Source: the human T2T-CHM13v2.0 reference genome, Homo sapiens | Length of the DNA: 64,000 nt | Assembly (NCBI GenBank): GCA_009914755.4 | Contig: CP086569.2 | Span: forward strand, 31,488,001 to 31,552,000 | Direction of reading: 5' to 3' | Shown here: one piece after another, positions 27,901 through 62,595 of the stretch | Layout of the letters: each line of letters starts with the position of its first letter | How positions within the stretch are numbered: position 1 is the stretch's first letter | Notes under the pieces: generated by a model | Database searches by the model: none | The model's input: the letters and a program-made list of their open reading frames with translations, nothing else | What the model was told of the DNA's origin: nothing | Position numbers and translations under genes: made by a program

Positions 27901-28500
27901 AAAGGAATCGAAACGAAAGGAATGGAGACAGATGGAATGGAATGGAACAGAGAGCAATGGTATAGAATGGAATGGAATCATGTGGAATGGAATTGAATGG
28001 AATGGAATAATATGAAATGGAATGGAATGGAATGCCCTTGAATTAAATGGACTGGAATGGAATGGACTCGAACAGAGTGGAATGGAAAGTGTTGAGATAG
28101 AATGGAATGGACTCCTTTGGAATGGTGTAGTATGCAATGCAATCGACTGGCAGGGAATCAAAAGGAATGTAATGGAATGGATTGGACTGGAATGCAATGG
28201 ACTCGAATAGATTGGAAACGGAATGCAAAGGAATGGAATGGAATAGTATGGAATGGAATGGAAAGGAATGGAGTGGAATAGACTAGAGTGGAATGGAATG
28301 GACTGGAAAGCAATGGACTGGATTGGAACTTTCTTGAATGGACTGGAATCAAACGGAATGGAATGCAATGCAATCAAATGGCATGGAATAAAATAGAATG
28401 AAAGAGAATCAAATGGAATTGAATCGAATGGAATCGAATGGATTGGAAAGGAATAGAATGGAATGGAATGGAATTGACTCAAATGGAATGGACTAGAATG
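24947..28500 (+). repeat. HOR unit U7 (3554 bp)
   Basis: Anchor at 24947. Near-identical to U6 over most of its length. Confidence 0.85.
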
Positions 28501-31500
28501 GAATGGATTCGAATGGAAGGCAAAGGAATGGAATCTATTGGAATGGACTGTAATGGAATGGAATGGAAGGGATTGGAATGGACTCGAATGGAATGGACTG
28601 CAATAGAAAGGATTCGAATGGAATGAAAAAGAATTGAATGGAATAGAACAGAATGGAATCAAATCGAATGAAATGGAATGGAATAGAAAGGAATGGAATG
28701 AAATGGAATGGAAAGGATTCGAATGGAATGCAATCGAATGGAATGGAATCGAACGGAATGGAATAAAATGGAAGAAAACTGGCAAGAAATGGAATCGAAA
28801 TGAATGGAGTGTTATGGAACGGACTCAAAAGGAATTGAATGTAATAGAATGGAGTGGAGTGGACTCGAATATAATGGACTGGAATGGAATGAAATCACAT
28901 GGAATGGGAACGAATGGAATGGAATGGAAAAGAATGGAATCGAATGGAAAGGAATCGAATGGAAGGGAATGAAATTGAATCAACAGGAATGGAAGGGAAT
29001 AGAATAGATGGTAATGGAATGGACTCGAATAGAATGGACACGAATGCTCAAATTGAATGGACTCGAATGGAATGGAAACGAAAGGAATGTCATCGAATGG
29101 AATTGAATCGATTGGAATGAAATCGCATAGAATGGAGTGGAATCAAATGGAATTGAATCGAAAGGAAAGGAAGCGAATGGACTGAAATGAAATGGAATGG
29201 AATTGAATGGAAAGTAATGCAATGGAATAGAATGGAACGAAATTTCACGGAATGGAATCAAACTGAATGGAATCAAATCAATGGAATCTAATCAAAGGAA
29301 TGGAAAGGAATTGAATGGAGTAGATTGGATTGGATGGGATTGGAATGAAATGTACTGGAAAGGACTCGAATTTCATGAAACGGAATGGAATGAATTGGAA
29401 CGGAATGGACTCGAATGGAATGGAATGTCATGGAATGGCATCAAATGGAATGGCATCAAATGGAATGGAATCGAATGCAATGGAATGCTATGGAATGGAA
29501 TGGAATGCATTGGAATGGAATGTCCTCTAATGGAATGGATTCGAGTGGAATGGAATCGAATATAATGGAGTCGAATGAAATGGAATTGAAAGGAATGGGA
29601 TCGAATTCAATGGAATATACTGCAATGTAATGTAATGAACTCGAATGTAATTGACTGGAATGGAATGTACATGAATGGAATGTAATCGAATGGAAAGTAA
29701 TCCAATGGAATAGAATCTAATGCAATAAAATCGACTCAGATAGAGTAGAATGTAATGGAATGGAGTGCAGTGCAATGGAATGGAATGGAATGGAATGCAA
29801 TGGAATGGAGTGGAATGCAATGGAATGGAATGGAATGGAATGGAATGGAATGGAATGGAATGGAATGGGATGGAATGCTATGGAATGGATAGTAATGGAC
29901 TGGAGTGAAATGGACTGGAAAGGAATGGACTCAAATTGAAAGGGCTCGAAAGGAATGCAGTCAAATGCAATGGTCTGGAATGGAATGAAGACGAATGTAT
30001 TGCAATCCAATAGAATGGAATCGAATGGCATGGAATATAAAGAAATGGAATCGAAGAGAATGGAAACAAATGGAATGGAATTGAATGGAATGGAATTGAA
30101 TAGAATGGGAACGAATGGAATGAAATTGTATGCAGTAGAAGAGAATAGAATGGAATGCAAGCGAAAGGAAAGGAATGGATTGGAATGGAATGGAATTCAT
30201 TGGAATGCAAGGGAATGTAGTGTAATGGACAGGCCTGGAATAAAGTGGAATGCTACGGTCTCGAATGGAATAAAAATGTATGGAATGGAATGCAATGAAA
30301 CGGAATCGAATGTCATAGAATGTAATGGAATGCAAAAAAATGGAATCCAAAATCATTGACTGGAAAGGCTGGGTGTCGAAAGGAATTGACTCCAATGGAA
30401 TGGAATCAAATGGAATGGAAGTGAATAGAATCGAACTAAATCGAATGGAATGGAATTGATAGGAACGGAATGGAAAGGAATGCAATGATTTGGCATGGAA
30501 TGGAATCGAATGGCATCGAATGGAATGGAATGGAATGCAATGGAATGGAATGTATTAGAATGGAATGAACTTTAATGGAATGTACTCGAATGGATTCGAC
30601 TGGAATGGAATGTTCTGGAAGTGAATGGACTCCAATGGAATGGATTCAAAAGGAATGGAATCGTACGGAATGGAATCTAATGGAATGGAATTAAATGGAA
30701 ATGAATCAAATTGAATAGCACGGAATTGAATTGAATGGAATGGAATGCAATGGAATCTAATGAAACGGAAAGGAAAGGAATGGAATGGAATGGAATGGGC
30801 TGGAATGGAAAGGAATCGAAACGAATGGAATGGAATCGAAGTGAAGAGACTGGAATGGAATGCACTGGAATGGAAGGGAGTGTAATGGAAGGTTCTCGAA
30901 AAAAATGGAATGGAATGGAATGGAATTGAATGGAACGGAATAGAGTCGAATGGAATTGAATGGAATGGAATGGACTAGAGTGAAATGGAATCGAACCACA
31001 AGGAATGGACAGGAATAGAATGGTCTCGAATTGAATGGAATCGTATGGAATGGCATCAAACGGAATGGAATGGACAGCCACGGAATGGAATGCACTCGAA
31101 TGCAATGGAGTCGAAACTAATGGACTGGAATAGAATGGACTCGACTGGTACGGACTCCAATGGAATGGAATCGAATGGAAGGGAATCGAACGGAATGGAC
31201 TCGAAGGGAAAAGACTGCAATGGAAAGGTCTCGAATGGAATGGAAATTAATGGAATGGAATGGAATCGAATGAAAAGGAGTCAAAAGGAATGGAATCGAA
31301 TGGCAAGAAATCGAATGTAATGGAATCGCAAGGAATTGATGTGAACGGAACGGAATGGAATGGAATCCAAAGGAATGGAATAGAATGGAATGGAATCGAA
31401 TGGAAAGGACTCGAATGGAAATCACTCGAATAGAATGCAATTTAATAAAATAGGATCAAATGTAATGGAATGGAATGGAAAGGAATCGAAACGAAAGGAA

Positions 31501-32078
31501 TGGAGACAGATGGAATGGAATGGAACAGAGAGCAATGGTATAGAATGGAATGGAATCATCTGGAATGGAATTGAATGGAATGGAATAATATGAAATGGAA
31601 TGGAATGGAATGCCCTTGAATTAAATGGACTGGAATGGAATGGACTCGAACAGAGTGGAATGGAAAGTGTTGAGATAGAATGGAATGGACTCCTTTGGAA
31701 TGGTGTAGTATGCAATGCAATCGACTGGCAGGGAATCAAAAGGAATGTAATGGAATGGATTGGACTGGAATGCAATGGACTCGAATAGATTGGAAACGGA
31801 ATGCAAAGGAATGGAATGGAATAGTATGGAATGGAATGGAAAGGAATGGAGTGGAATAGACTAGAGTGGAATGGAATGGACTGGAAAGCAATGGACTGGA
31901 TTGGAACTTTCTTGAATGGACTGGAATCAAACGGAATGGAATGCAATGCAATCAAATGGCATGGAATAAAATAGAATGAAAGAGAATCAAATGGAATTGA
32001 ATCGAATGGAATCGAATGGATTGGAAAGGAATAGAATGGAATGGAATGGAATTGACTCAAATGGAATGGACTAGAATG
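28501..32078 (+). repeat. HOR unit U8 (3578 bp)
   Basis: Anchor at 28501. Carries an extra ~20-bp duplication (tggaatggagtggaatgcaa) inside the first pentamer tract around 29790-29820. Confidence 0.85.
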
Positions 32079-34156
32079 GAATGGATTCGAATGGAAGGCA
32101 AAGGAATGGAATCTATTGGAATGGACTGTAATGGAATGGAATGGAAGGGATTGGAATGGACTCGAATGGAATGGACTGCAATAGAAAGGATTCGAATGGA
32201 ATGAAAAAGAATTGAATGGAATAGAACAGAATGGAATCAAATCGAATGAAATGGAATGGAATAGAAAGGAATGGAATGAAATGGAATGGAAAGGATTCGA
32301 ATGGAATGCAATCGAATGGAATGGAATCGAACGGAATGGAATAAAATGGAAGAAAACTGGCAAGAAATGGAATCGAAATGAATGGAGTGTTATGGAACGG
32401 ACTCAAAAGGAATTGAATGTAATAGAATGGAGTGGAGTGGACTCGAATATAATGGACTGGAATGGAATGAAATCACATGGAATGGGAACGAATGGAATGG
32501 AATGGAAAAGAATGGAATCGAATGGAAAGGAATCGAATGGAAGGGAATGAAATTGAATCAACAGGAATGGAAGGGAATAGAATAGATGGTAATGGAATGG
32601 ACTCGAATAGAATGGACACGAATGCTCAAATTGAATGGACTCGAATGGAATGGAAACGAAAGGAATGTCATCGAATGGAATTGAATCGATTGGAATGAAA
32701 TCGCATAGAATGGAGTGGAATCAAATGGAATTGAATCGAAAGGAAAGGAAGCGAATGGACTGAAATGAAATGGAATGGAATTGAATGGAAAGTAATGCAA
32801 TGGAATAGAATGGAACGAAATTTCACGGAATGGAATCAAACTGAATGGAATCAAATCAATGGAATCTAATCAAAGGAATGGAAAGGAATTGAATGGAGTA
32901 GATTGGATTGGATGGGATTGGAATGAAATGTACTGGAAAGGACTCGAATTTCATGAAACGGAATGGAATGAATTGGAACGGAATGGACTCGAATGGAATG
33001 GAATGTCATGGAATGGCATCAAATGGAATGGCATCAAATGGAATGGAATCGAATGCAATGGAATGCTATGGAATGGAATGGAATGCATTGGAATGGAATG
33101 TCCTCTAATGGAATGGATTCGAGTGGAATGGAATCGAATATAATGGAGTCGAATGAAATGGAATTGAAAGGAATGGGATCGAATTCAATGGAATATACTG
33201 CAATGTAATGTAATGAACTCGAATGTAATTGACTGGAATGGAATGTACATGAATGGAATGTAATCGAATGGAAAGTAATCCAATGGAATAGAATCTAATG
33301 CAATAAAATCGACTCAGATAGAGTAGAATGTAATGGAATGGAGTGCAGTGCAATGGAATGGAATGGAATGGAATGCAATGGAATGGAATGGAATGCAATG
33401 GAATGGAATGGAATGGAATGGAATGGAATGGAATGGAATGGGATGGAATGCTATGGAATGGATAGTAATGGACTGGAGTGAAATGGACTGGAAAGGAATG
33501 GACTCAAATTGAAAGGGCTCGAAAGGAATGCAGTCAAATGCAATGGTCTGGAATGGAATGAAGACGAATGTATTGCAATCCAATAGAATGGAATCGAATG
33601 GCATGGAATATAAAGAAATGGAATCGAAGAGAATGGAAACAAATGGAATGGAATTGAATGGAATGGAATAATATGAAATGGAATGGAATGGAATGGAATG
33701 GAATGCCCTTGAATTAAATGGACTGGAATGGAATGGACTCGAACAGAGTGGAATGGAAAGTGTTGAGATAGAATGGAATGGACTCCTTTGGAATGGTGTA
33801 GTATGCAATGCAATCGACTGGCAGGGAATCAAAAGGAATGTAATGGAATGGATTGGACTGGAATGCAATGGACTCGAATAGATTGGAAACGGAATGCAAA
33901 GGAATGGAATGGAATAGTATGGAATGGAATGGAAAGGAATGGAGTGGAATAGACTAGAGTGGAATGGAATGGACTGGAAAGCAATGGACTGGAATGGAAC
34001 TTTCTTGAATGGACTGGAATCAAACGGAATGGAATGCAATGCAATCAAATGGCATGGAATAAAATAGAATGAAAGAGAATCAAATGGAATTGAATCGAAT
34101 GGAATCGAATGGATTGGAAAGGAATAGAATGGAATGGAATGGAATGGACTAGAATG
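32079..34156 (+). repeat. HOR unit U9, truncated variant (2078 bp) with ~1490-bp internal deletion; B allele at 3' end
   Basis: Anchor at 32079 and next anchor at 34157. Sequence corresponding to U8 positions 30097-31586 is missing. The junction lies in a 26-bp shared motif at 33644-33669. Confidence 0.85.
33644..33669 (+). other. Deletion junction in U9 inside the 26-bp motif tggaatggaattgaatggaatggaat
   Basis: In full-length units the same 26-mer occurs twice, about 1490 bp apart (30071-30096 and 31561-31586 in U8). In U9 a single copy joins the two flanks. Confidence 0.8.
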
Positions 34157-37100
34157 GAATGGATTCGAATGGAAGGCAAAGGAATGGAATCTATTGGAAT
34201 GGACTGTAATGGAATGGAATGGAAGGGATTGGAATGGACTCGAATGGAATGGACTGCAATAGAAAGGATTCGAATGGAATGAAAAAGAATTGAATGGAAT
34301 AGAACAGAATGGAATCAAATCGAATGAAATGGAATGGAATAGAAAGGAATGGAATGAAATGGAATGGAAAGGATTCGAATGGAATGCAATCGAATGGAAT
34401 GGAATCGAACGGAATGGAATAAAATGGAAGAAAACTGGCAAGAAATGGAATCGAAATGAATGGAGTGTTATGGAACGGACTCAAAAGGAATTGAATGTAA
34501 TAGAATGGAGTGGAGTGGATTCGAATATAATGGACTGGAATGGAATGAAATCACATGGAATGGGAACGAATGGAATGGAATGGAAAGGAATGGAATCGAA
34601 TGGAAAGGAATCGAATGGAAGGGAATGAAATTGAATCAACAGGAATGGAAGGGAATAGAATAGACGGTAATGGAATGGACTCGAATAGAATGGACACGAA
34701 TGCTCAAATTGAATGGACTCGAGTGGAATGGAAACGAAAGGAATGTCATCGAATGGAATTGAATTGATTGGAATGAAATCGCATAGAATGGAGTGGAATC
34801 AAATGGAATTGAATCGAAAGGAAAGGAAGCGAATGGACTGAAATGAAATGGAATGGAATTGAATGGAAAGTAATGCAATGGAATAGAATGGAACGAAATT
34901 TCACGGAATGGAATCAAACTGAATGGAATCAAATCAATGGAATCAAATCAAATGGAATGGAAAGGAATTGAATGGAGTAGATTGGATTGGATGGGATTGG
35001 AATGAAATGTACTGGAAAGGACTCGAATTTCATGAAACGGAATGGAATGAATTGGAACGGAATGGACTCGAATGGAATGGAATGTCATGGAATGGCATCA
35101 AATGGAATGGCATCAAATGGAATGGAATCGAATGCAATGGAATGCTATGGAATGGAATGGAATGCATTGGAATGGAATGTCCTCTAATGGAATGGATTCG
35201 AGTGGAATGGAATCGAATATAATGGAGTCGAATGAAATGGAATTGAAAGGAATGGGATCGAATACAATGGAATATACTGGAATGTAATGTAATGAACTCG
35301 AATGTAATTGACTGGAATGGAATGTACATGAATGGAATGTAATCGAATGGAAAGTAATCCAATGGAATAGAATCTAATGCAATAAAATCGACTCAGATAG
35401 AGTAGAATGTAATGGAATGGAGTGCAGTGCAATGGAATGGAATGGAATGCAATGGAATGGAATGGAATGGAATGGAATGGAATGGAATGGGATGGGTTGG
35501 AATGGTATGGAATGGTTAGTAATGGACTGGAGTGAAATGGACTGGAAAGGAATGGACTCAAATTGAAAGGGCTCGAAAGGAATGGAGTCAAATGGAATGG
35601 TCTGGAATGGAATGAACACGAATGTAATGCAATCCAATAGAATGGAATCGAATGGCATGGAATATAAAGAAATGGAATCGAAGAGAATGGAAACAAATGG
35701 AATGGAATTGAATGGAATGGAATTGAATGGAATGGGAACGAATGGAGTGAAATTTTATGCAGTAGAAAGGAATAGAATGGAATGCAAGCGAAAGGAAAGG
35801 AATGGATTGGAATGGAATGGAATTCATTGGAATGGAAGGGAATGTAGTGTAATGGACAGGCCTGGAATAAAGTGGAATGCTACGGTCTCGAATGGAATAA
35901 AAATGTATGGAATGGAATGCAATGAAACGGAATCGAATGTCATAGAATGTAATGGAATGCAAAAAAATGGAATCCAAAATCATTGACTGGAAAGGCTGGG
36001 TGTCGAAAGGAATTGACTCCAATGGAATGGAATCGAATGGAATGGAAGTGAATAGAATCGAACTAAATCGAATGGAATGGAATTGATAGGAACGGAATGG
36101 AAAGGAATGCAATGATTTGGCATGGAATGGAATCGAATGGCATCGAATGGAATGGAATGGAATGCAATGGAATGGAATGTATTAGAATGTAATGAACTTT
36201 AATGGAATGTACTCGAATGGATTCGACTGGAATGGAATGTTCCGGAAGTGAATGGACTCCAATGGAATGGATTCAAAAGGAATGGAATCGTACGGAATGG
36301 AATCTAATGGAATGGAATTAAATGGAAATGAATCAAATTGAATAGCACGGAATTGAATTGAATGGAATCGAATGCAATGGAATCTAATGAAACGGAAAGG
36401 AAAGGAATGGAATGAAACGGAATGGGCTGGAATGGAAAGGAATCGAAACGAATGGAATGGAATCGAACTGAAGAGACTGGAATGGAATGCACTGGAATGG
36501 AAGGGAGTGTAATGGAAGGTTCTCGAAAAAAATGGAATCGAATGGAATGGAATTGAATGGAACGGAATAGAGTCGAATGGAATTGAATGGAATGGAATGG
36601 ACTAGAGTGAAATGGAATCGAACCACAAGGAATGGACAGGAATAGAATGGTCTCGAATTGAATGGAATCGTATGGAATGACATCAAACGGAATGGAATGG
36701 ACACCCACGGAATGGAATGCACTCGAATGCAATGGAGTCGAAACTAATGGACTGGAATAGAATGGACTCGACTGGTACGGACTCCAATGGCATGGAATCG
36801 AATGGAAGGGAATCGAACGGAATGGACTCGAAGGGAAAAGACTGCAATGGAAAGGTCTCGAATGGAATGGAAATTAATGGAATGGAATGGAATCGAATGA
36901 AATGGAGTCAAAAGGAATGGAATCGAATGGCAAGAAATCGAATGTAATGGAATCGCAAGGAATTGATGTGAACGGAACGGAATGGAATGGAATCCAAAGG
37001 AATGGAATAGAATGGAATGGAATCGAATGGAAAGGACTCGAATGGAAATCACTCGAATAGAATGCAATTTAATAAAATAGGATCAAATGTAATGGAATGG

Positions 37101-55495: not shown

Positions 55496-58400
55496 GAATG
55501 GATTCGAATGGAAGGCAAAGGAATGGAATCTATTGGAATGGACTGTAATGGAATGGAATGGAAGGGATTGGAATGGACTCGAATGGAATGGACTGCAATA
55601 GAAAGGATTCGAATGGAATGAAAAAGAATTGAATGGAATAGAACAGAATGGAATCAAATCGAATGAAATGGAATGGAATAGAAAGGAATGGAATGAAATG
55701 GAATGGAAAGGATTCGAATGGAATGCAATCGAATGGAATGGAATCGAACGGAATGGAATAAAATGGAAGAAAACTGGCAAGAAATGGAATCGAAATGAAT
55801 GGAGTGTTATGGAACGGACTCAAAAGGAATTGAATGTAATAGAATGGAGTGGAGTGGACTCGAATATAATGGACTGGAATGGAATGAAATCACATGGAAT
55901 GGGAACGAATGGAATGGAATGGAAAGGAATGGAATCGAATGGAAAGGAATCGAATGGAAGGGAATGAAATTGAATCAACAGGAATGGAAGGGAATAGAAT
56001 AGACGGTAATGGAATGGACTCGAATAGAATGGACACGAATGCTCAAATTGAATGGACTCGAATGGAATGGAAACGAAAGGAATGTCATCGAATGGAATTG
56101 AATCGATTGGAATGAAATCGCATAGAATGGAGTGGAATCAAATGGAATTGAATCGAAAGGAAAGGAAGCGAATGGACTGAAATGAAATGGAATGGAATTG
56201 AATGGAAAGTAATGCAATGGAATAGAATGGAACGAAATTTCACGGAATGGAATCAAACTGAATGGAATCAAATCAATGGAATCCAATCAAATGGAATGGA
56301 GTAGATTGGATTGGATGGGATTGGAATGAAATGTACTGGAAAGGACTCGAATTTCATGAAACGGAATGCAATGAATTGGAACGGAATGGACTCGAATGGA
56401 ATGGAATGTCATAGAATGGCATCAGATGGATTGGCATCAAATGGAATGGAATAGAATGCAATGGAATGCTATGGAATGGAATGGAATGCATTGGAATGGA
56501 ATGTCCTCTAATGGAATGGATTCGAGTGGAATGGAATCGAATATAATGGAGTCGAATGAAATGGAATTGAAAGGAATGGGATCGAATACAATGGAATATA
56601 CTGGAATGTAATGTAATGAACTCGAATGTAATTGACTGGAATGGAATGTACATGAATGGAATGTAATCGAATGGAAAGTAATCCAATGGAATAGAATCTA
56701 ATGCAATAAAATCGACTCAGATAGAGTAGAATGTAATGGAATGGAGTGCAGTGCAATGGAATGGAATGGAATGGAATGCAATGGAATGGAATGGAATGGA
56801 ATGGAATGGAATGGAATGGAATGGAATGGAATGGGATGGAATGGTATGGAATGGATAGTAATGGACTGGAGTGAAATGGACTGGAATGGAATGGACTCAA
56901 ATTGAAAGGGCTCGAAAGGAATGGAGTCAAATGGAATGGTCTGGAATGGAATGAACACGAATGTAATGCAATCCAATAGAATGGAATCGAATGGCATGGA
57001 ATATAGAGAAATGGAATCGAAGAGAATGGAAACAAATGGAATGGAATTGAATGGAATGGAATTGAATGGAATGGGAACGAATGGAGTGAAATTGTATGCA
57101 GTAGAAGGGAATAGAATGGAATGCAAGCGAAAGGAAAGGAATGGATTGGAATGGAATGGAATTCATTGGAATGGAAGGGAATGTAGTGTAATGGACAGGC
57201 CTGGAATAAAGTGGAATGCTACGGTCTCGAATGGAATAAAAATGTATGGAATGGAATGCAATGAAACGGAATCGAATGTCATAGAATGTAATGGAATGCA
57301 AAAAAATGGAATCCAAAATCATTGACTGGAAAGGCTGGGTGTCGAAAGGAATTCACTGCAATGGAATGGAATCGAATGGAATGGAAGTGAATAGAATCGA
57401 ACTAAATCGAATGGAATGGAATTGATAGGAACGGAATGGAAAGGAATGCAATGATTTGGCATGGAATGGAATCGAATGGCATCGAATGGAATGGAATGGA
57501 ATGCAATGGAATGGAATGTATTAGAATGTAATGAACATTAATGGAATGTACTCGAATGGATTCGACTGGAATGGAATGTTCTGGAAGTGAATGGACTCCA
57601 ATGGAATGGATTCGAAAGGAATGGAATCGAACGGAATGGATTCTAATGGAATCGAATTAAATGGAAATGAATCAAATTGAATAGCACGGAATTGAATTGA
57701 ATGGAATCGAATGCAATGGAATCTAATGAAACGGAAAGGAAAGAATGGAATGGAATAGAATGGGCTGGAATGGAAAGGAATCGAAACGAATGGAATGGAA
57801 TCGAACTGAAGAGACTGGAATGGAATGCACTGGAATGGAAGGGAGTGTAATGGAAGGTTCTCGAAAAAAATGGAATGGAATGGAATGCAATTGAATGGAA
57901 CGGAATAGAGTCGAATGGAATTGAATGGAATGGAATGGACTAGAGTGAAATGGAATCGAACCACAAGGAATGGACAGGAATAGAATGGTCTCGAATTGAA
58001 TGGAATCGTATGGAATGGCATCAAACGGAATGGAATGGACAGCCACGGAATGGAATGCACTCGAATGCAATGGAGTCGAAACTAATGGACTGGAATAGAA
58101 TGGACTCGACTGGTACGGACTCCAATGGAATGGAATCGAATGGAAGGGAATCGAACGGAATGGACTCGAAGGGAAAAGACTGCAATGGAAAGGTCTCGAA
58201 TGGAATGGAAATTAATGGGATGGAATGGAATCGAATGAAATGGAGTCAAAAGGAATGGAATCGAATGGTAAGAAATTGAATGTAATGGAATCGCAAGGAA
58301 TTGATGTGAACGGAACGGAATGGAATGGAATCCAAAGGAATGGAATAGAATGGAATGGAATCGAATGGAAAGGACTCGAATGGAAATCACTCGAATAGAA

Positions 58401-59041
58401 TGCAATTTAATAAAATAGGATCAAATGTAATAGAATGGAAGGGAAAGGAATCGAAACGGAAGGAATGGAGACAGATGGAATGGAATGGAAGAGAGAGCAA
58501 TAGTATAGAATGGAATGGAATCATCTGGAATGGAATTGAATGGAATGGAATAATATGAAATGGAATGGAATGGAATGGAATGGAATGCCCTTGAATTAAA
58601 TGGACTGGACTCGAACAGAGTGGAATGGAAAGTGCTGATAGAATGGAATGGACTCCTTTGGAATGGTGTAGTATGCAATGCAATCGACTGGCAGGGAATC
58701 AAAAGGAATGTAATGGAATGGATTGGACTGGAATGCAATGGACTCGAATAGATTGGAAACGGAATGCAAAGGAATGGAATGGAATAGTATGGAATGCAAT
58801 GGAAGGGAATGGAGTGGAATAGACTAGAGTGGAATGGAATGGACTGGAAAGCAATGGACTGGAATGGAACTTTCTTGGATGGATTGGAATCAAACGGAAT
58901 GGAATGCAATGCAATCAAATGGCATGGAATAAAATAGAATGAAAGAGAATCAAATGGAATTGAATCGAATGGAATCGAATGGATTGGAAAGGAATAGAAT
59001 GGAATGGAATGGAATTGACTCAAATGGAATGGACTAGAATG
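55496..59041 (+). repeat. HOR unit U16 (3546 bp), more divergent
   Basis: Anchor at 55496. Private 14-bp deletion near 56290. A further 10-bp deletion and substitutions at 58600-58640. Several private substitutions between 58250 and 58500. Confidence 0.8.
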
Positions 59042-62000
59042 GAATGGATTCGAATGGAAGGCAAAGGAATGGAATCTATTGGAATGGACTGTAATGGAAT
59101 GGAATGGAAGGGATTGGAATGGACTCGAATGGAATGGACTGCAATAGAAAGGATTCGAATGGAATGAAAAAGAATTGAATGGAATAGAACAGAATGGAAT
59201 GAAATCGAATGAAATGGAATGGAATAGAAAGGAATGGAATGAAATGGAATGGAAAGGATTCGAATGGAATGCAATCGAATGGAATGGAATCGAACGGAAT
59301 GGAATAAAATGGAAGAAAACTGGCAAGAAATGGAATCGAAATGAATGGAGTGTTATGGAACGGACTCAAAAGGAATTGAATGTAATAGAATGGAGTGGAG
59401 TGGACTCGAATATAATGGACTGGAATGGAATGAAATCACATGGAATGGGAACGAATGGAATGGAATGGAAAGGAATGGAATCGAATGGAAAGGAATCGAA
59501 TGGAAGGGAATGAAATTGAATCAACAGGAATGGAAGGGAATAGAATAGACGGTAATGGAATGGACTCGAATAGAATGGACACGAATGCTCAAATTGAATG
59601 GACTCGAATGGAATGGAAACGAAAGGAATGTCATCGAATGGAATTGAATCGATTGGAATGAAATCGCATAGAATGGAGTGGAATCAAATGGAATTGAATC
59701 GAAAGGAAAGGAAGCGAATGGACTGAAATGAAATGGAATGGAATTGAATGGAAAGTAATGCAATGGAATAGAATGGAACGAAATTTCACGGAATGGAATC
59801 AAACTGAATGGAATCAAATCAACGGAATCTAATCAAATGGAATGGAAAGGAATTGAATGGAGTAGATTGGATTGGATGGGATTGGAATGAAATGTACTGG
59901 AAAGGACTCGAATTTCATGAAACGGAATGGAATGAATTGGAACGGAATGGACTCGAATGGAATGGAATGTCATGGAATGGCATCAAATGGAATGGCATCA
60001 AATGGAATGGAATCGAATGCAATGGAATGCTATGGAATGGAATGGAATGCATTTTAATGGAATGTCCTCTAATGGAATGGATTCGAGTGGAATGGAATCG
60101 AATATAATGGAGTCGAATGAAATGGAATTGAAAGGAATGGGATTGAATACAATGGAATATACTGGAATGTAATGTAATGAACTCGAATGTAATCGACTGG
60201 AATGGAATGTACATGAATGGAATGTAATCGAATGGAAAGTAATCCAATGGAATAGAATCTAATGCAATAAAATCGACTCAGATAGAGTAGAATGTAATGG
60301 AATGGAGTGCAGTGCAATGGAATGGAATGGAATGGAAAGCAATGGAATGGAATGGAATGGAATGGAATGGAATGGGATGGAATGGTATGGAATGGATAGT
60401 AATGGACTGGAGTGAAATGGACTGGAAAAGAATGGACTCAAATTGAAAGGGCTCTAACGGAATGGAGTCAAATGGAATGGTCTGGAATGGAATGAACACG
60501 AATGTAATGCAATCCAATAGAATGGAATCGAATGGCATGGAATATAAAGAAATGGAATCGAAGAGAATGGAAACAAATGGAATGGAATTGAATGGAATGG
60601 AATTGAATGGAATGGGAACGAATGGAGTGAAATTGTATGCAGTAGAAGAGAATAGAATGGAATGCAAGCGAAATGAAAGGAATGGATTGCAATGGAATGG
60701 AATTCATTGGAATGGAAGGGAATGTAGTGTAATGGACAGGCCTGGAATAAAGTGGAATGCTACGGTCTCGAATGGAATAAAAATGTATGGAATGGAATGC
60801 AATGAAACGGAATCGAATGTCATAGAATGTAATGGAATGCAAAAAAATGGAATCCAAAATCATTGACTGGAAAGGCTGGGTGTCGAAAGGAATTGACTCC
60901 AATGGAATGGAATCGAATGGAATGGAAGTGAATAGAATCGAACTAAATCGAATGGAATGGAATTGATAGGAACGGAATGGAAAGGAATGCAATGATTTGG
61001 CATGGAATGGAATCGAATGGCATCGAATGGAATGGAATGGAATGCAATGGAATGGAATGTATTAGAATGTAATGAACATTAATGGAATGTACTCGAATGG
61101 ATTCGACTGGAATGGAATGTTCTGGAAGTGAATGGACTCCAATGGAATGGATTCGAAAGGAATGGAATCGAACGGAATGGAATCTAATGGAATGGAATTA
61201 AATGGAAATGAATCAAATTGAATAGCACGGAATTGAATTGAATGGAATCGAATGAAATGGAATCTAATGAAACGGAAAGGAAAGGAATGGAATGGAATGG
61301 AATGGGCTGGAATGGAAAGGAATCGAAACGAATGGAATGGAATCGAACTGAAGAGACTGGAATGGAATGCACTGGAATGGAAGGGATTGTAATGGAAGGT
61401 TCTCGAAAATAATGGAAGCAAATGGAATGGAATTGAATGGAACGGAATAGAGTCGAATGGAATTGAATGGAATGGAATGGACTAGAGTGAAATGGAATCG
61501 AACCACAAGGAATGGACAGGAATAGAATGGTCTCGAATTGAATGGAATCGTATGGAATGGCATCAAACGGAATGGAATGGACAGCCACGGAATGGAATGC
61601 ACTCGAATGCAATGGAGTCGAAACTTATGGACTGGAATAGAATGGACTCGACTGGTACGGACTCCAATGGAATGGAATCGAATGGAAGGGATTCGAACGG
61701 AATGGACTCGAAGGGAAAAGACTGCAATGGAAAGGTCTCGAATGGAATGGAAATTAATGGAATGGAATGGAATCGAATGAAATGGAGTCAAAAGGAATGG
61801 AATCGAATGGCAAGAAATCGAATGTAATGGAATCGCAAGGAATTGATGTGAACGGAACGGAATGGAATGGAATCCAAAGGAATGGAATAGAATGGAATGG
61901 AATCGAATGGAAAGGACTCGAATGGAAATCACTCGAATAGAATGAAATTTAATAAAATAGGATCAAATGTAATTGAATGGAATGGAAAGGAATCGAAACG

Positions 62001-62595
62001 AAAGGAATGGAGACAGATGGAATGGAATGGAACAGAGAGCAATGGTATAGAATGGAACGGAATCATCTGGAATGGAATTCAATGGAATGGAATAATATGA
62101 AATGGAATGGAATGGAATGGAATGGAATGCCCTTGAATTAAATGGACTGGAATGGAATGGACTCGAACAGAGTGGAATGGAAAGTGTTGAGATAGAATGG
62201 AATGGACTCCTTTGGAATGGTGTAGTATGCAATGCAATCGACTGGCAGGGAATCAAAAGGAATGTAATGGAATGGATTGGACTGGAATGCAATGGACTCG
62301 AATAGATTGGAAACGGAATGCAAAGGAATGGAATGGAATAGTATGGAATGGAATGGAAAGGAATGGAGTGGAATAGACTAGAGTGGAATGGAATGGACTG
62401 GAAAGCAATGGACTAGAATGGAACTTTCTTGAATGGACTGGAATCAAACGGAATGGAATGCAATGCAATCAAATGGCATGGAATAAAATAGAATGAAAGA
62501 GAATCAAATGGAATTGAATCGAATGGAATCGAATGGATTGGAAAGGAATAGAATGGAATGGAATGGAATTGACTCAAATGGAATGGACTAGAATG
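59042..62595 (+). repeat. HOR unit U17 (3554 bp)
   Basis: Anchor at 59042. Shares gaacatt and ttcgaaagg...cgaacgg variants with U16. Confidence 0.85.

What the first reader, a model, noticed from the sequence alone, without database searches (positions are those of the whole stretch)
32079..34156. One HOR unit carries a 1.49-kb internal deletion whose junction sits in a 26-bp intra-unit direct repeat
U9 is 2078 bp instead of ~3570 bp. The junction (33644-33669) is a single copy of tggaatggaattgaatggaatggaat. In intact units this motif occurs twice in direct orientation, about 1490 bp apart (HOR offsets ~1570 and ~3060). This is the signature of homology-mediated deletion within one repeat unit, by intra-unit unequal exchange, single-strand annealing or replication slippage. 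The event is fixed in this array copy. It gives a unique sequence landmark in an otherwise monotonous array and fuses two minus-strand reading frames into the longest spurious ORF of the window (33314-34441).
Basis: seen in the sequence. Interest (0 to 1): 0.55.

Follow-up and report, generated by a model that had tools for sequence, protein, structure and literature searches.

The report
Truncated Y-satellite (DYZ1) repeat unit
One unit in a human Y-chromosome DYZ1 satellite array lacks 1.49 kb exactly between two copies of a 26-bp direct repeat; this is an ordinary product of repeat-mediated recombination and serves mainly as a local landmark.

Summary
The window holds 18 tandem DYZ1 (HSat3A6) units of 3.53-3.59 kb. 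Unit 32079-34156 is 2,078 bp. The 26-mer TGGAATGGAATTGAATGGAATGGAAT occurs twice, 1,490 bp apart, in intact units (1,489 bp in U16; one mismatch in U17's second copy). In the short unit it occurs once, at 33644-33669. The left flank of that copy matches the upstream copy's context and the right flank matches the downstream copy's. Homology is exactly 26 bp, with no filler and no relocated DNA.

Three points need correcting:
- **HaeIII test:** the only HaeIII site of a unit lies inside the missing segment. A digest would give a 5,627-bp fragment, not a 2.1-kb band.
- **"Intra-unit" is unproven:** the same junction would result if whole units had also been lost.
- **Recent duplication:** 31561-33669 is a near-perfect copy of 27983-30096 (one substitution, one 5-bp indel). 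The preceding unit also switches subtype within 46 bp at its own downstream 26-mer.

The unit therefore arose either by duplication followed by deletion, or by one coupled event that inserted a 2.08-kb partial unit. These data cannot separate the two. The junction was absent from 86 independent DYZ1-like loci. Interest is low.

The parts
32079..34156 (.). U9, the truncated DYZ1 unit (2,078 bp). It consists of a Z-subtype left arm, one 26-mer and a Z-subtype right arm.
   Evidence: Anchor spacing. Colinear alignment to U8, U10, U7 and U11. Subtype markers.
33644..33669 (+). Junction: the single 26-mer TGGAATGGAATTGAATGGAATGGAAT, with the A context on its left and the B context on its right.
   Evidence: The 42-nt junction word is unique in the window.
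30071..30096 (+). A copy of the 26-mer in the neighbouring intact unit U8, given as an example of the upstream repeat.
31561..31586 (+). B copy of the 26-mer in U8, 1,490 bp downstream of A.
30097..31586 (.). The 1,490-bp interval of U8 that has no counterpart in U9 (equivalently 30071-31560). It holds the unit's only HaeIII/StuI site (30231-30235) and the sites of published DYZ1 primers A, D and G.
27983..30096 (.). Copy 1 of the recent 2.1-kb duplicate. It runs from the B copy of U7, through U7's right arm and U8's left arm, to the A copy of U8.
   Evidence: It differs from 31561-33669 by one substitution (29810 G versus 33388 A) and one 5-bp indel. All other B-to-A segments differ by 5-28 substitutions.
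31561..33669 (.). Copy 2 of the recent 2.1-kb duplicate. It runs from the B copy of U8, through U8's right arm and U9's left arm, to the junction 26-mer.
31560..31606 (.). The interval in which U8 switches from the Z subtype (C at 31560, one base before B) to the X subtype (short GGAAT tract, then a right arm identical to U7's and U4's).
30232..35859 (.). The 5,627-bp HaeIII fragment that spans the site-less unit. This is the fragment a digest would actually show.
33314..34441 (-). The longest ORF in the window (375 aa, TTG start). It is a low-complexity pentamer translation and not a gene.

Best explanation
The window is human Y-chromosome DYZ1 (HSat3A6) satellite. U9 is a Z-subtype unit whose two internal 26-bp direct repeats, A and B, have been recombined into one. 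Relative to a full unit it lacks the 1,490 bp between them.

**Most likely history (inferred):**
1. A Z unit lying between U7 and U10 was duplicated by a one-unit out-of-register sister-chromatid exchange. The switch point fell at or just after B. This gave U8 (Z left arm and middle, X right arm) and a full-length U9.
2. A break between A and B in the distal copy was then repaired by annealing of the two 26-mers. This could be single-strand annealing, microhomology-type end joining, or an equivalent unequal or intrachromatid exchange. It removed 1,490 bp, a multiple of the 5-bp satellite period.

**Shown:** the junction, its exact 26-bp homology, its colinearity, the subtype mosaic and the recent duplication.

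**Inferred:** the order of events, the repair pathway, and that no additional whole units were lost.

The feature has no function. Its consequences are a unique sequence landmark, loss of the HaeIII site and of the DYZ1 primer sites in that interval, and a spurious long ORF.
For: **Identity of the array**
- Unit size is 3.53-3.59 kb.
- There is one GGCC per unit, giving fragments of 3,524-3,579 bp. These include the 3,569 bp reported as the modal DYZ1 HaeIII fragment (Hallast et al. preprint).
- Seven of the eight published DYZ1 primers from PMC3925983 Table 5 match in nearly every unit that retains their site, 16-19 hits each.

**Junction**
- Searches show A-left and B-right flanks, exactly 26 bp of shared sequence and no filler.
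- A/B is one of only 2-9 exact non-overlapping direct-repeat pairs of at least 26 bp per unit.
- The A/B pair, with modal 1,490-bp spacing, is also seen in independent DYZ1 loci from other samples. These gave 41 A-context and about 69 B-context copies.

**Z subtype on both arms**
- The left arm differs from U8's by one substitution and one indel, and from U5's by 5-6 substitutions.
- The right arm is identical to U5's.
- Restored length would be 2,078 + 1,490 = 3,568 bp, in the same length class modulo 5 as Z units U5 (3,553) and U8 (3,578).

**Recent duplication**
- 27983-30096 and 31561-33669 differ by one substitution and one 5-bp indel.
- One-unit duplications of the same kind are seen at U6/U7 and U13-U15.
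- The T2T-Y paper reports unequal exchange and frequent sister-chromatid exchange in Yq12.
Against: - **Coincidence.** The two-step history requires the switch point of the preceding duplication (31560-31606, a 47-bp interval in a 3.57-kb unit) to fall by chance on the same B repeat that forms the deletion junction. That is roughly 1-3% if switch points are uniform. It rises to about 10-20% if the slippage-prone GGAAT tract marker is ignored.
- **Short time window.** The deletion must also have followed the duplication within a period that allowed only one substitution in 2.1 kb.
- **No intermediate.** No full-length intermediate was found in the window or in the 86 external loci.
- **Weak homology.** From general knowledge, 26 bp is at the low end for efficient single-strand annealing in mammalian cells. 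Whole-unit homology would compete strongly for the same break.
- **Unverified assembly.** No reads were available to confirm the assembly at this point.
Confidence: 0.5

Rival explanations
1. **One coupled event, net gain rather than loss.** A single Z unit suffered a break or fork collapse at its B repeat. The left end re-initiated synthesis one unit out of register, at the B copy of U7. It copied U7's right arm and the Z left arm up to A. It then rejoined the original B and right arm through the 26-bp A/B homology. This could be template switching of the BIR or synthesis-dependent kind, or integration of a 2.08-kb B-to-A circle at the 26-mer. On this reading U9 was never full length: 2.08 kb was inserted and nothing was deleted.
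For: - U8 plus U9 equals exactly one Z unit (left arm, middle, C at B-1, then a right arm identical to U5's) with a B-to-A segment inserted at B.
- The insert differs from the adjacent 27983-30096 by one substitution and one 5-bp indel.
- Both novel joints, Z-to-X at 31560-31606 and A/B at 33644-33669, use the two sides of one and the same B repeat. A single event predicts this; two independent events do so only with about 1-10% probability.
- The differences between the copies lie in a hypervariable GGAAT tract, as expected from slippage-prone repair synthesis.
Against: - It needs two template choices in one event.
- After out-of-register invasion, the newly made strand carries B plus about 500 bp of right arm. 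That should re-anneal in register far more readily than through the 26-bp A copy.
- Kilobase-scale templated insertions are rarer than simple deletions and unit duplications (general knowledge).
- With only three resolvable switch points in the window, the co-localisation argument is post hoc.
- The simplest version, a single unequal crossover between the A copy of the next unit and the B copy of the previous one, is excluded. U9's left arm is 16 substitutions from U10's, and its right arm differs from U8's at all three markers.
Confidence: 0.33
2. **Artefact.** The short unit is not in the person's genome. It arose as an assembly error, or as a deletion in a bacterial clone if the sequence is clone-based.
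For: - No read-level data could be examined.
- Tandem satellite inserts are unstable in E. coli, and deletions between short direct repeats are a typical cloning artefact (general knowledge).
- The junction word was not found in any of 86 independent DYZ1-like loci.
Against: - Assemblers join on kilobase overlaps, and a collapse would remove whole 3.57-kb units rather than 1,490 bp ending in a 26-mer.
- The flanking units are otherwise regular.
- U9 carries its own private variants relative to its sister arm.
- Absence from the external loci is expected for a single-copy variant among several thousand units. The T2T-Y paper reports over 20 Mb of DYZ1.
Confidence: 0.08
3. **Recurrent hotspot.** The region at and just after B, meaning the 26-mer plus the adjoining length-variable (GGAAT)3-7 tract, is a recurrent breakage or template-switch hotspot in DYZ1. 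The U6, U8 and U9 joints would then be separate events drawn to the same fragile site. This would remove the coincidence under either history.
For: - Three joints in four consecutive units fall within B-1 to B+363: U6 in B-1..B+363, U8 in B-1..B+46, and the U9 junction at B.
- The tract after B varies from 3 to 7 repeats in the window and from 4 to 6 in external loci.
Against: - The third resolvable duplication (U13-U15) switches 520-900 bp upstream of B.
- The sample is tiny and the intervals are set by marker spacing.
- No AB or BA junction was seen among about 115 external 26-mer occurrences.
Confidence: 0.2

Closest known systems
DYZ1 / HSat3A6, the ~3.56-kb HaeIII repeat of human Yq12
   Same: Unit length, GGAAT/TTCCA pentamer substructure, one HaeIII site per unit with fragments around 3,569 bp, and matches to published DYZ1 primers. 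The 17 other units are ordinary members.
   Different: U9 lacks 1,490 bp, including the HaeIII site. The DYZ1 papers read here report only small (5-35 bp) indels within units, plus a separate 2.7-kb DYZ18/DYZ1 hybrid repeat array at the Yq11/Yq12 transition. None of them describes this junction.
Structural-variant units of higher-order satellite repeats made by unequal exchange between internal sub-repeats (for example alpha-satellite HOR variants with missing or extra monomers)
   Same: A tandem array of near-identical long units contains an occasional unit shortened exactly between two internal direct repeats. The array evolves by out-of-register exchange (for Yq12).
   Different: The mediating homology here is a 26-bp exact word within degenerate pentamer sequence, not a ~171-bp monomer. 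The variant is a single copy, not an amplified variant class, as far as the window and 86 external loci show.
Single-strand annealing / microhomology-mediated deletion between direct repeats
   Same: One repeat copy is retained, the intervening DNA is lost, there is no filler, and the flanks are colinear.
   Different: The pathway cannot be read from the product. The subtype pattern of U8 and U9 also fits a templated 2.08-kb insertion.

Membership tests
DYZ1 (HSat3A6) satellite | Tandem units of about 3.56 kb built from diverged GGAAT/TTCCA pentamers | tested here: met
   Units are 3,529-3,589 bp. Tandem Repeats Finder reports periods of 10, 15, 25 and 45 with GGAAT-type consensus over the whole window. 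Base composition is strongly A/G-rich on the + strand.
DYZ1 (HSat3A6) satellite | One HaeIII site per unit, with a modal fragment of about 3,564-3,569 bp | tested here: met
   There are 17 GGCC sites, one in each unit except U9. Fragments are 3,524-3,579 bp, including 3,569 twice.
DYZ1 (HSat3A6) satellite | Sequence matches to published DYZ1-specific primers | tested here: met
   Seven of the eight primers in PMC3925983 Table 5 match with 0-2 mismatches, 16-19 hits each, in the expected order and on the expected strand. Primer H differs from the window by a 1-base indel.
DYZ1 (HSat3A6) satellite | Location on Yq12, male-specific | not testable with these tools
   No human genome collection was available.
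Homology-mediated deletion junction (SSA / NAHR-type) | Direct repeats flank the missing segment in intact copies, and exactly one copy remains at the junction | tested here: met
Homology-mediated deletion junction (SSA / NAHR-type) | No filler bases, and the flanks are colinear with the intact unit | tested here: met
Homology-mediated deletion junction (SSA / NAHR-type) | A full-length ancestral allele of the same unit existed | not testable with these tools
   There is no paralogous or orthologous copy of the U7-U10 haplotype in the window or in the 86 external loci. Z- and X-specific 25-mers are essentially absent from those loci.
Single unequal crossover between the A copy of unit k+1 and the B copy of unit k (duplicative product) | The short unit's left arm matches the following unit and its right arm matches the preceding unit | tested here: not met
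   U9's left arm is 16 substitutions from U10's. Its right arm differs from U8's at all three markers.
Reciprocal product of A x B exchange | A 5.06-kb unit with a B-left/A-right junction is present | tested here: not met
   There are no matches in the window. The A/B order strictly alternates. None was seen in the external loci; the one apparent case, L047, is generic HSat3 at 71% identity.

The most novel reading that the evidence does not exclude
The short unit was never full length. It records a one-step, kilobase-scale templated insertion in human satellite DNA, in which both joints use the same 26-bp word. That word, together with the adjoining variable GGAAT tract, would be a recurrent break or template-switch hotspot that shapes DYZ1 array evolution.
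Probability: 0.2. Interest if true: 0.4.

Novelty: new member of a known kind. Interest (0 to 1): 0.15.

Why it matters
- **Landmark.** The junction gives a unique 42-nt word in an otherwise monotonous array. It could serve for assembly validation, read anchoring, or tracing this Yq12 block across Y haplogroups.
- **Mechanism.** Together with the subtype mosaic of U5-U10, it is a small, well-resolved example of how DYZ1 arrays change through one-unit out-of-register exchange plus short-homology joining. It may also be a coupled duplication and truncation.
- **Assays.** A unit like this is invisible to HaeIII-based unit counting, where it merges two fragments into 5.6 kb. It is also invisible to PCR assays whose primers lie in the missing interval.
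- **Function.** It has no known functional consequence.

Tried and rejected
- **MAFFT of whole units.** It scattered a few U9 bases across the gap. I replaced it with separate alignments of the left arm, middle and right arm.
- **Single A x B duplicative crossover.** Rejected on arm haplotypes.
- **Relocation of the missing segment.** Rejected, because markers specific to that segment occur in the intact units only.
- **Junction word in other samples.** There were no hits in genome contigs or metagenome contigs. Degenerate scans showed that those collections do contain DYZ1, as 86 loci of human contamination. Absence therefore only shows that the junction is not a common variant.
- **L047.** It looked like a reciprocal B-left/A-right junction but is generic HSat3 at 71% identity.
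- **Pre-event haplotype in external loci.** A search with Z- and X-specific 25-mers found essentially nothing, so the subtypes are local to this array.
- **Literature.** Searches for the classical Y1.1/Y1.2 DYZ1 primers and for the 2.1-kb HaeIII DYZ2 band found nothing in the library. Those two points rest on memory only, although the recalled primers match every intact unit and are missing from U9.
- **The ORF as a gene.** Rejected. It is a pentamer translation read with a bacterial-code TTG start.

Full report
**What the window is.** The 64-kb window is a head-to-tail array of 18 complete units and the start of a nineteenth. Unit starts lie at 1, 3575, 7144, 10733, 14301, 17855, 21408, 24947, 28501, 32079, 34157, 37706, 41265, 44794, 48353, 51922, 55496, 59042 and 62596. 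Seventeen units are 3,529-3,589 bp long.

Several results identify the array as human Y-chromosome DYZ1 (HSat3A6):
- The sequence is built from diverged GGAAT pentamers.
- Each full unit has exactly one HaeIII site. The fragments are 3,524-3,579 bp and include 3,569 bp, the length reported as the most abundant DYZ1 HaeIII fragment in assembled Y chromosomes.
- Seven of eight published DYZ1 primers match in nearly every unit that retains their site, in the expected order.
- The + strand is the GGAAT strand, opposite to the usual TTCCA convention.

Chromosomal location itself could not be tested.

U9 (32079-34156) is 2,078 bp. The 26-mer TGGAATGGAATTGAATGGAATGGAAT occurs 34 times, always on the + strand. 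It alternates between an A position and a B position, 1,490 bp apart in 15 units and 1,489 bp apart in U16. U17's B copy, at 62068, has one mismatch. U9 has a single copy at 33644-33669.

Printing all contexts side by side shows three things:
- The sequence left of the U9 copy is the A-left context.
- The sequence right of it is the B-right context.
- The two contexts diverge at the first base on each side of the 26-mer.

Junction homology is therefore exactly 26 bp, with no filler.

Global alignment of U9 to U8 is colinear, with 4 mismatches in 2,078 bases. Markers specific to the missing segment occur in the intact units only and never in U9, so nothing was moved elsewhere. The 42-nt junction word is unique in the window, and the reciprocal junction is absent. 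Only 2-9 exact non-overlapping direct-repeat pairs of at least 26 bp exist per unit, and A/B is one of them. The junction therefore reflects the repeat pair and not alignment ambiguity. The ORF 33314-34441(-) is the longest in the window, but it translates to pentamer-derived low complexity.

- **HaeIII.** The unit's only HaeIII site (offset about 1,710) lies inside the missing interval. U9 has no site, and a digest gives a 5,627-bp fragment (30232 to 35859) rather than a 2.1-kb band. Published primers A, D and G also fall in the missing interval and are absent from U9. So is the classical short DYZ1 amplicon, whose primers I recalled from memory and could not find in the library.
- **"Intra-unit".** This is not demonstrable. 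An exchange between the A copy of one unit and the B copy of a later unit gives the same product.

**Subtype analysis.** I aligned the left arm (unit start to A), the middle (A to B) and the right arm (B to unit end) separately. Two local subtypes emerge: X (U4, U6, U7, U10, U12) and Z (U5, U8, U9, and partly U11). They alternate from U4 to U12.

| Unit | Left arm | Middle | Right arm |
|---|---|---|---|
| U7 | X | X | X |
| U8 | Z | Z, through the base before B (31560 C; all X units have G) | Identical to U7's and U4's (X) |
| U9 | Z; sister of U8's (one substitution plus a 5-bp indel, and a shared insertion seen nowhere else) | absent | Identical to U5's (Z) |

U9's right arm differs from U8's at all three right-arm markers: 31901 T versus 33994 A, a 10-bp tract indel and a 15-bp indel. 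U8 therefore switches subtype within 31560-31606, an interval that starts with its own B 26-mer.

The 2,109 bp from U8's B copy to the U9 junction (31561-33669) differ from the 2,114 bp from U7's B copy to U8's A copy (27983-30096) by one substitution and one 5-bp indel. Every other B-to-A segment differs by 5-28 substitutions. In other words, U8 plus U9 is one Z unit with a fresh 2.08-kb B-to-A segment inserted at its B repeat.

**Mechanism.** What is shown is a joint made through the 26-bp A/B homology, inside a very recent local duplication. Two histories fit.

*H1, two steps.*
1. A one-unit out-of-register sister-chromatid exchange between U7 and the ancestral Z unit, switching at or just after B, produced U8 and a full-length U9.
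2. The 1,490-bp A-B interval of U9 was then lost by annealing of the 26-mers or an equivalent exchange.

One-unit duplications of this kind are evident elsewhere in the window (U6/U7 and U13-U15). Unequal exchange and frequent sister-chromatid exchange are reported for Yq12.

The weakness of H1 is a coincidence. The duplication's switch point has to fall in a 47-bp interval on the very repeat that later formed the deletion joint. That is about 1-3% under uniform switch points, or about 10-20% if the slippage-prone tract marker is discounted. This estimate is an inference.

*H2, one step.*
1. A break or collapsed fork at B of a single Z unit re-initiated synthesis one unit back, at U7's B copy.
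2. It copied U7's right arm and the Z left arm up to A.
3. It then rejoined B through the 26-bp homology.

H2 predicts both joints at one B repeat and the near-identity of the duplicate. It needs two unusual template choices, and in-register re-annealing should normally win.

The simple single A x B duplicative crossover is excluded by the arm haplotypes. I put H1 at about 0.5, H2 at about 0.33 and an assembly or clone artefact at about 0.08. A hotspot at B would soften the coincidence under either history. Three joints fall within B-1 to B+363 in four consecutive units, but the third resolvable duplication switches 520-900 bp upstream of B. The hotspot idea is therefore only a suggestion.

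**Evidence from elsewhere.** Exact scans for the junction word found nothing in the microbial-genome and metagenome collections. Degenerate scans showed that these collections do contain DYZ1 as human contamination. There were 86 loci, many 95-99% identical to the window units. They gave 41 A-context and about 69 B-context 26-mers, a modal A-to-B spacing of 1,490 bp, and no A/B or B/A junction.

Two conclusions follow. The 26-mer pair is a conserved feature of DYZ1, and the junction is not a common variant. This says little about a single-copy event among the several thousand units on a Y chromosome. The Z and X subtype markers are essentially absent from these loci, so they could not supply the ancestral state.

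**Comparison with what is known, and verdict.** The array is ordinary DYZ1. The short unit is a structural-variant unit of the kind expected in long-unit satellites that evolve by unequal exchange, with a junction typical of short-homology repair. The DYZ1 papers read here describe only small indels within units and a separate 2.7-kb DYZ18/DYZ1 hybrid repeat array. This junction appears undescribed but is not a new kind of feature.

Interest is low. The useful outputs are a correct description, a corrected restriction prediction, a unique landmark word and a testable question: loss or coupled gain. Complete Yq12 assemblies could answer that question.

Noticed in passing
window 14301-44793 (U4-U12): Units alternate between two subtypes, X (U4, U6, U7, U10, U12) and Z (U5, U8, U9, partly U11). 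This gives a dimeric super-repeat of about 7.1 kb, disturbed by two recent one-unit duplications (U6/U7 and U8/U9). U6 is the complementary kind of hybrid to U8, with an X left arm and middle and a Z-like right arm.
   Followed up: partly
window 18957, 29603, 33181: Z-subtype units carry an extra EcoRI site at unit offset 1103. This gives 2,988-bp EcoRI fragments that would mark the subtype on a digest.
   Followed up: no
window, unit offsets ~1290-1330 and B+10..B+45 (e.g. 29790-29830, 31571-31606): There are two hypervariable pure (GGAAT)n tracts. Nearly all length differences between units are multiples of 5 bp and fall in these tracts. The tract after B has 3-7 repeats in the window and 4-6 in external DYZ1 loci.
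   Followed up: partly
window 62068-62093 (U17, B copy): The B 26-mer of U17 has a G-to-C change (TTGAAT to TTCAAT) that creates an EcoRI site at 62075. It is the only mutated copy of the 26-mer in the window.
   Followed up: no
window 55496-62595 (U16, U17): These two units are clearly more diverged from the rest, with 18-32 substitutions in the middle block. U16 also has a 10-bp deletion shortly after B. They may mark a boundary between sub-blocks of the array.
   Followed up: no
L078 (BMRF01000076.1), L083, L086, L080-L082, L084 and others: Contigs filed under bacterial or archaeal genomes are 97-99% identical to DYZ1 over their full length, which means contamination with human male DNA. 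Examples are Actinomadura cremea JCM 3308, Streptomyces sp. NPDC050549, a Polyangiaceae MAG, Senimuribacter DSM 106208 and several JCM actinomycete assemblies. L079 and L085 (a Nitrosocosmicus MAG) are about 92% identical. A further 77 metagenome stretches matched the degenerate DYZ1 pattern, at 71-99% identity to the window units.
   Followed up: partly
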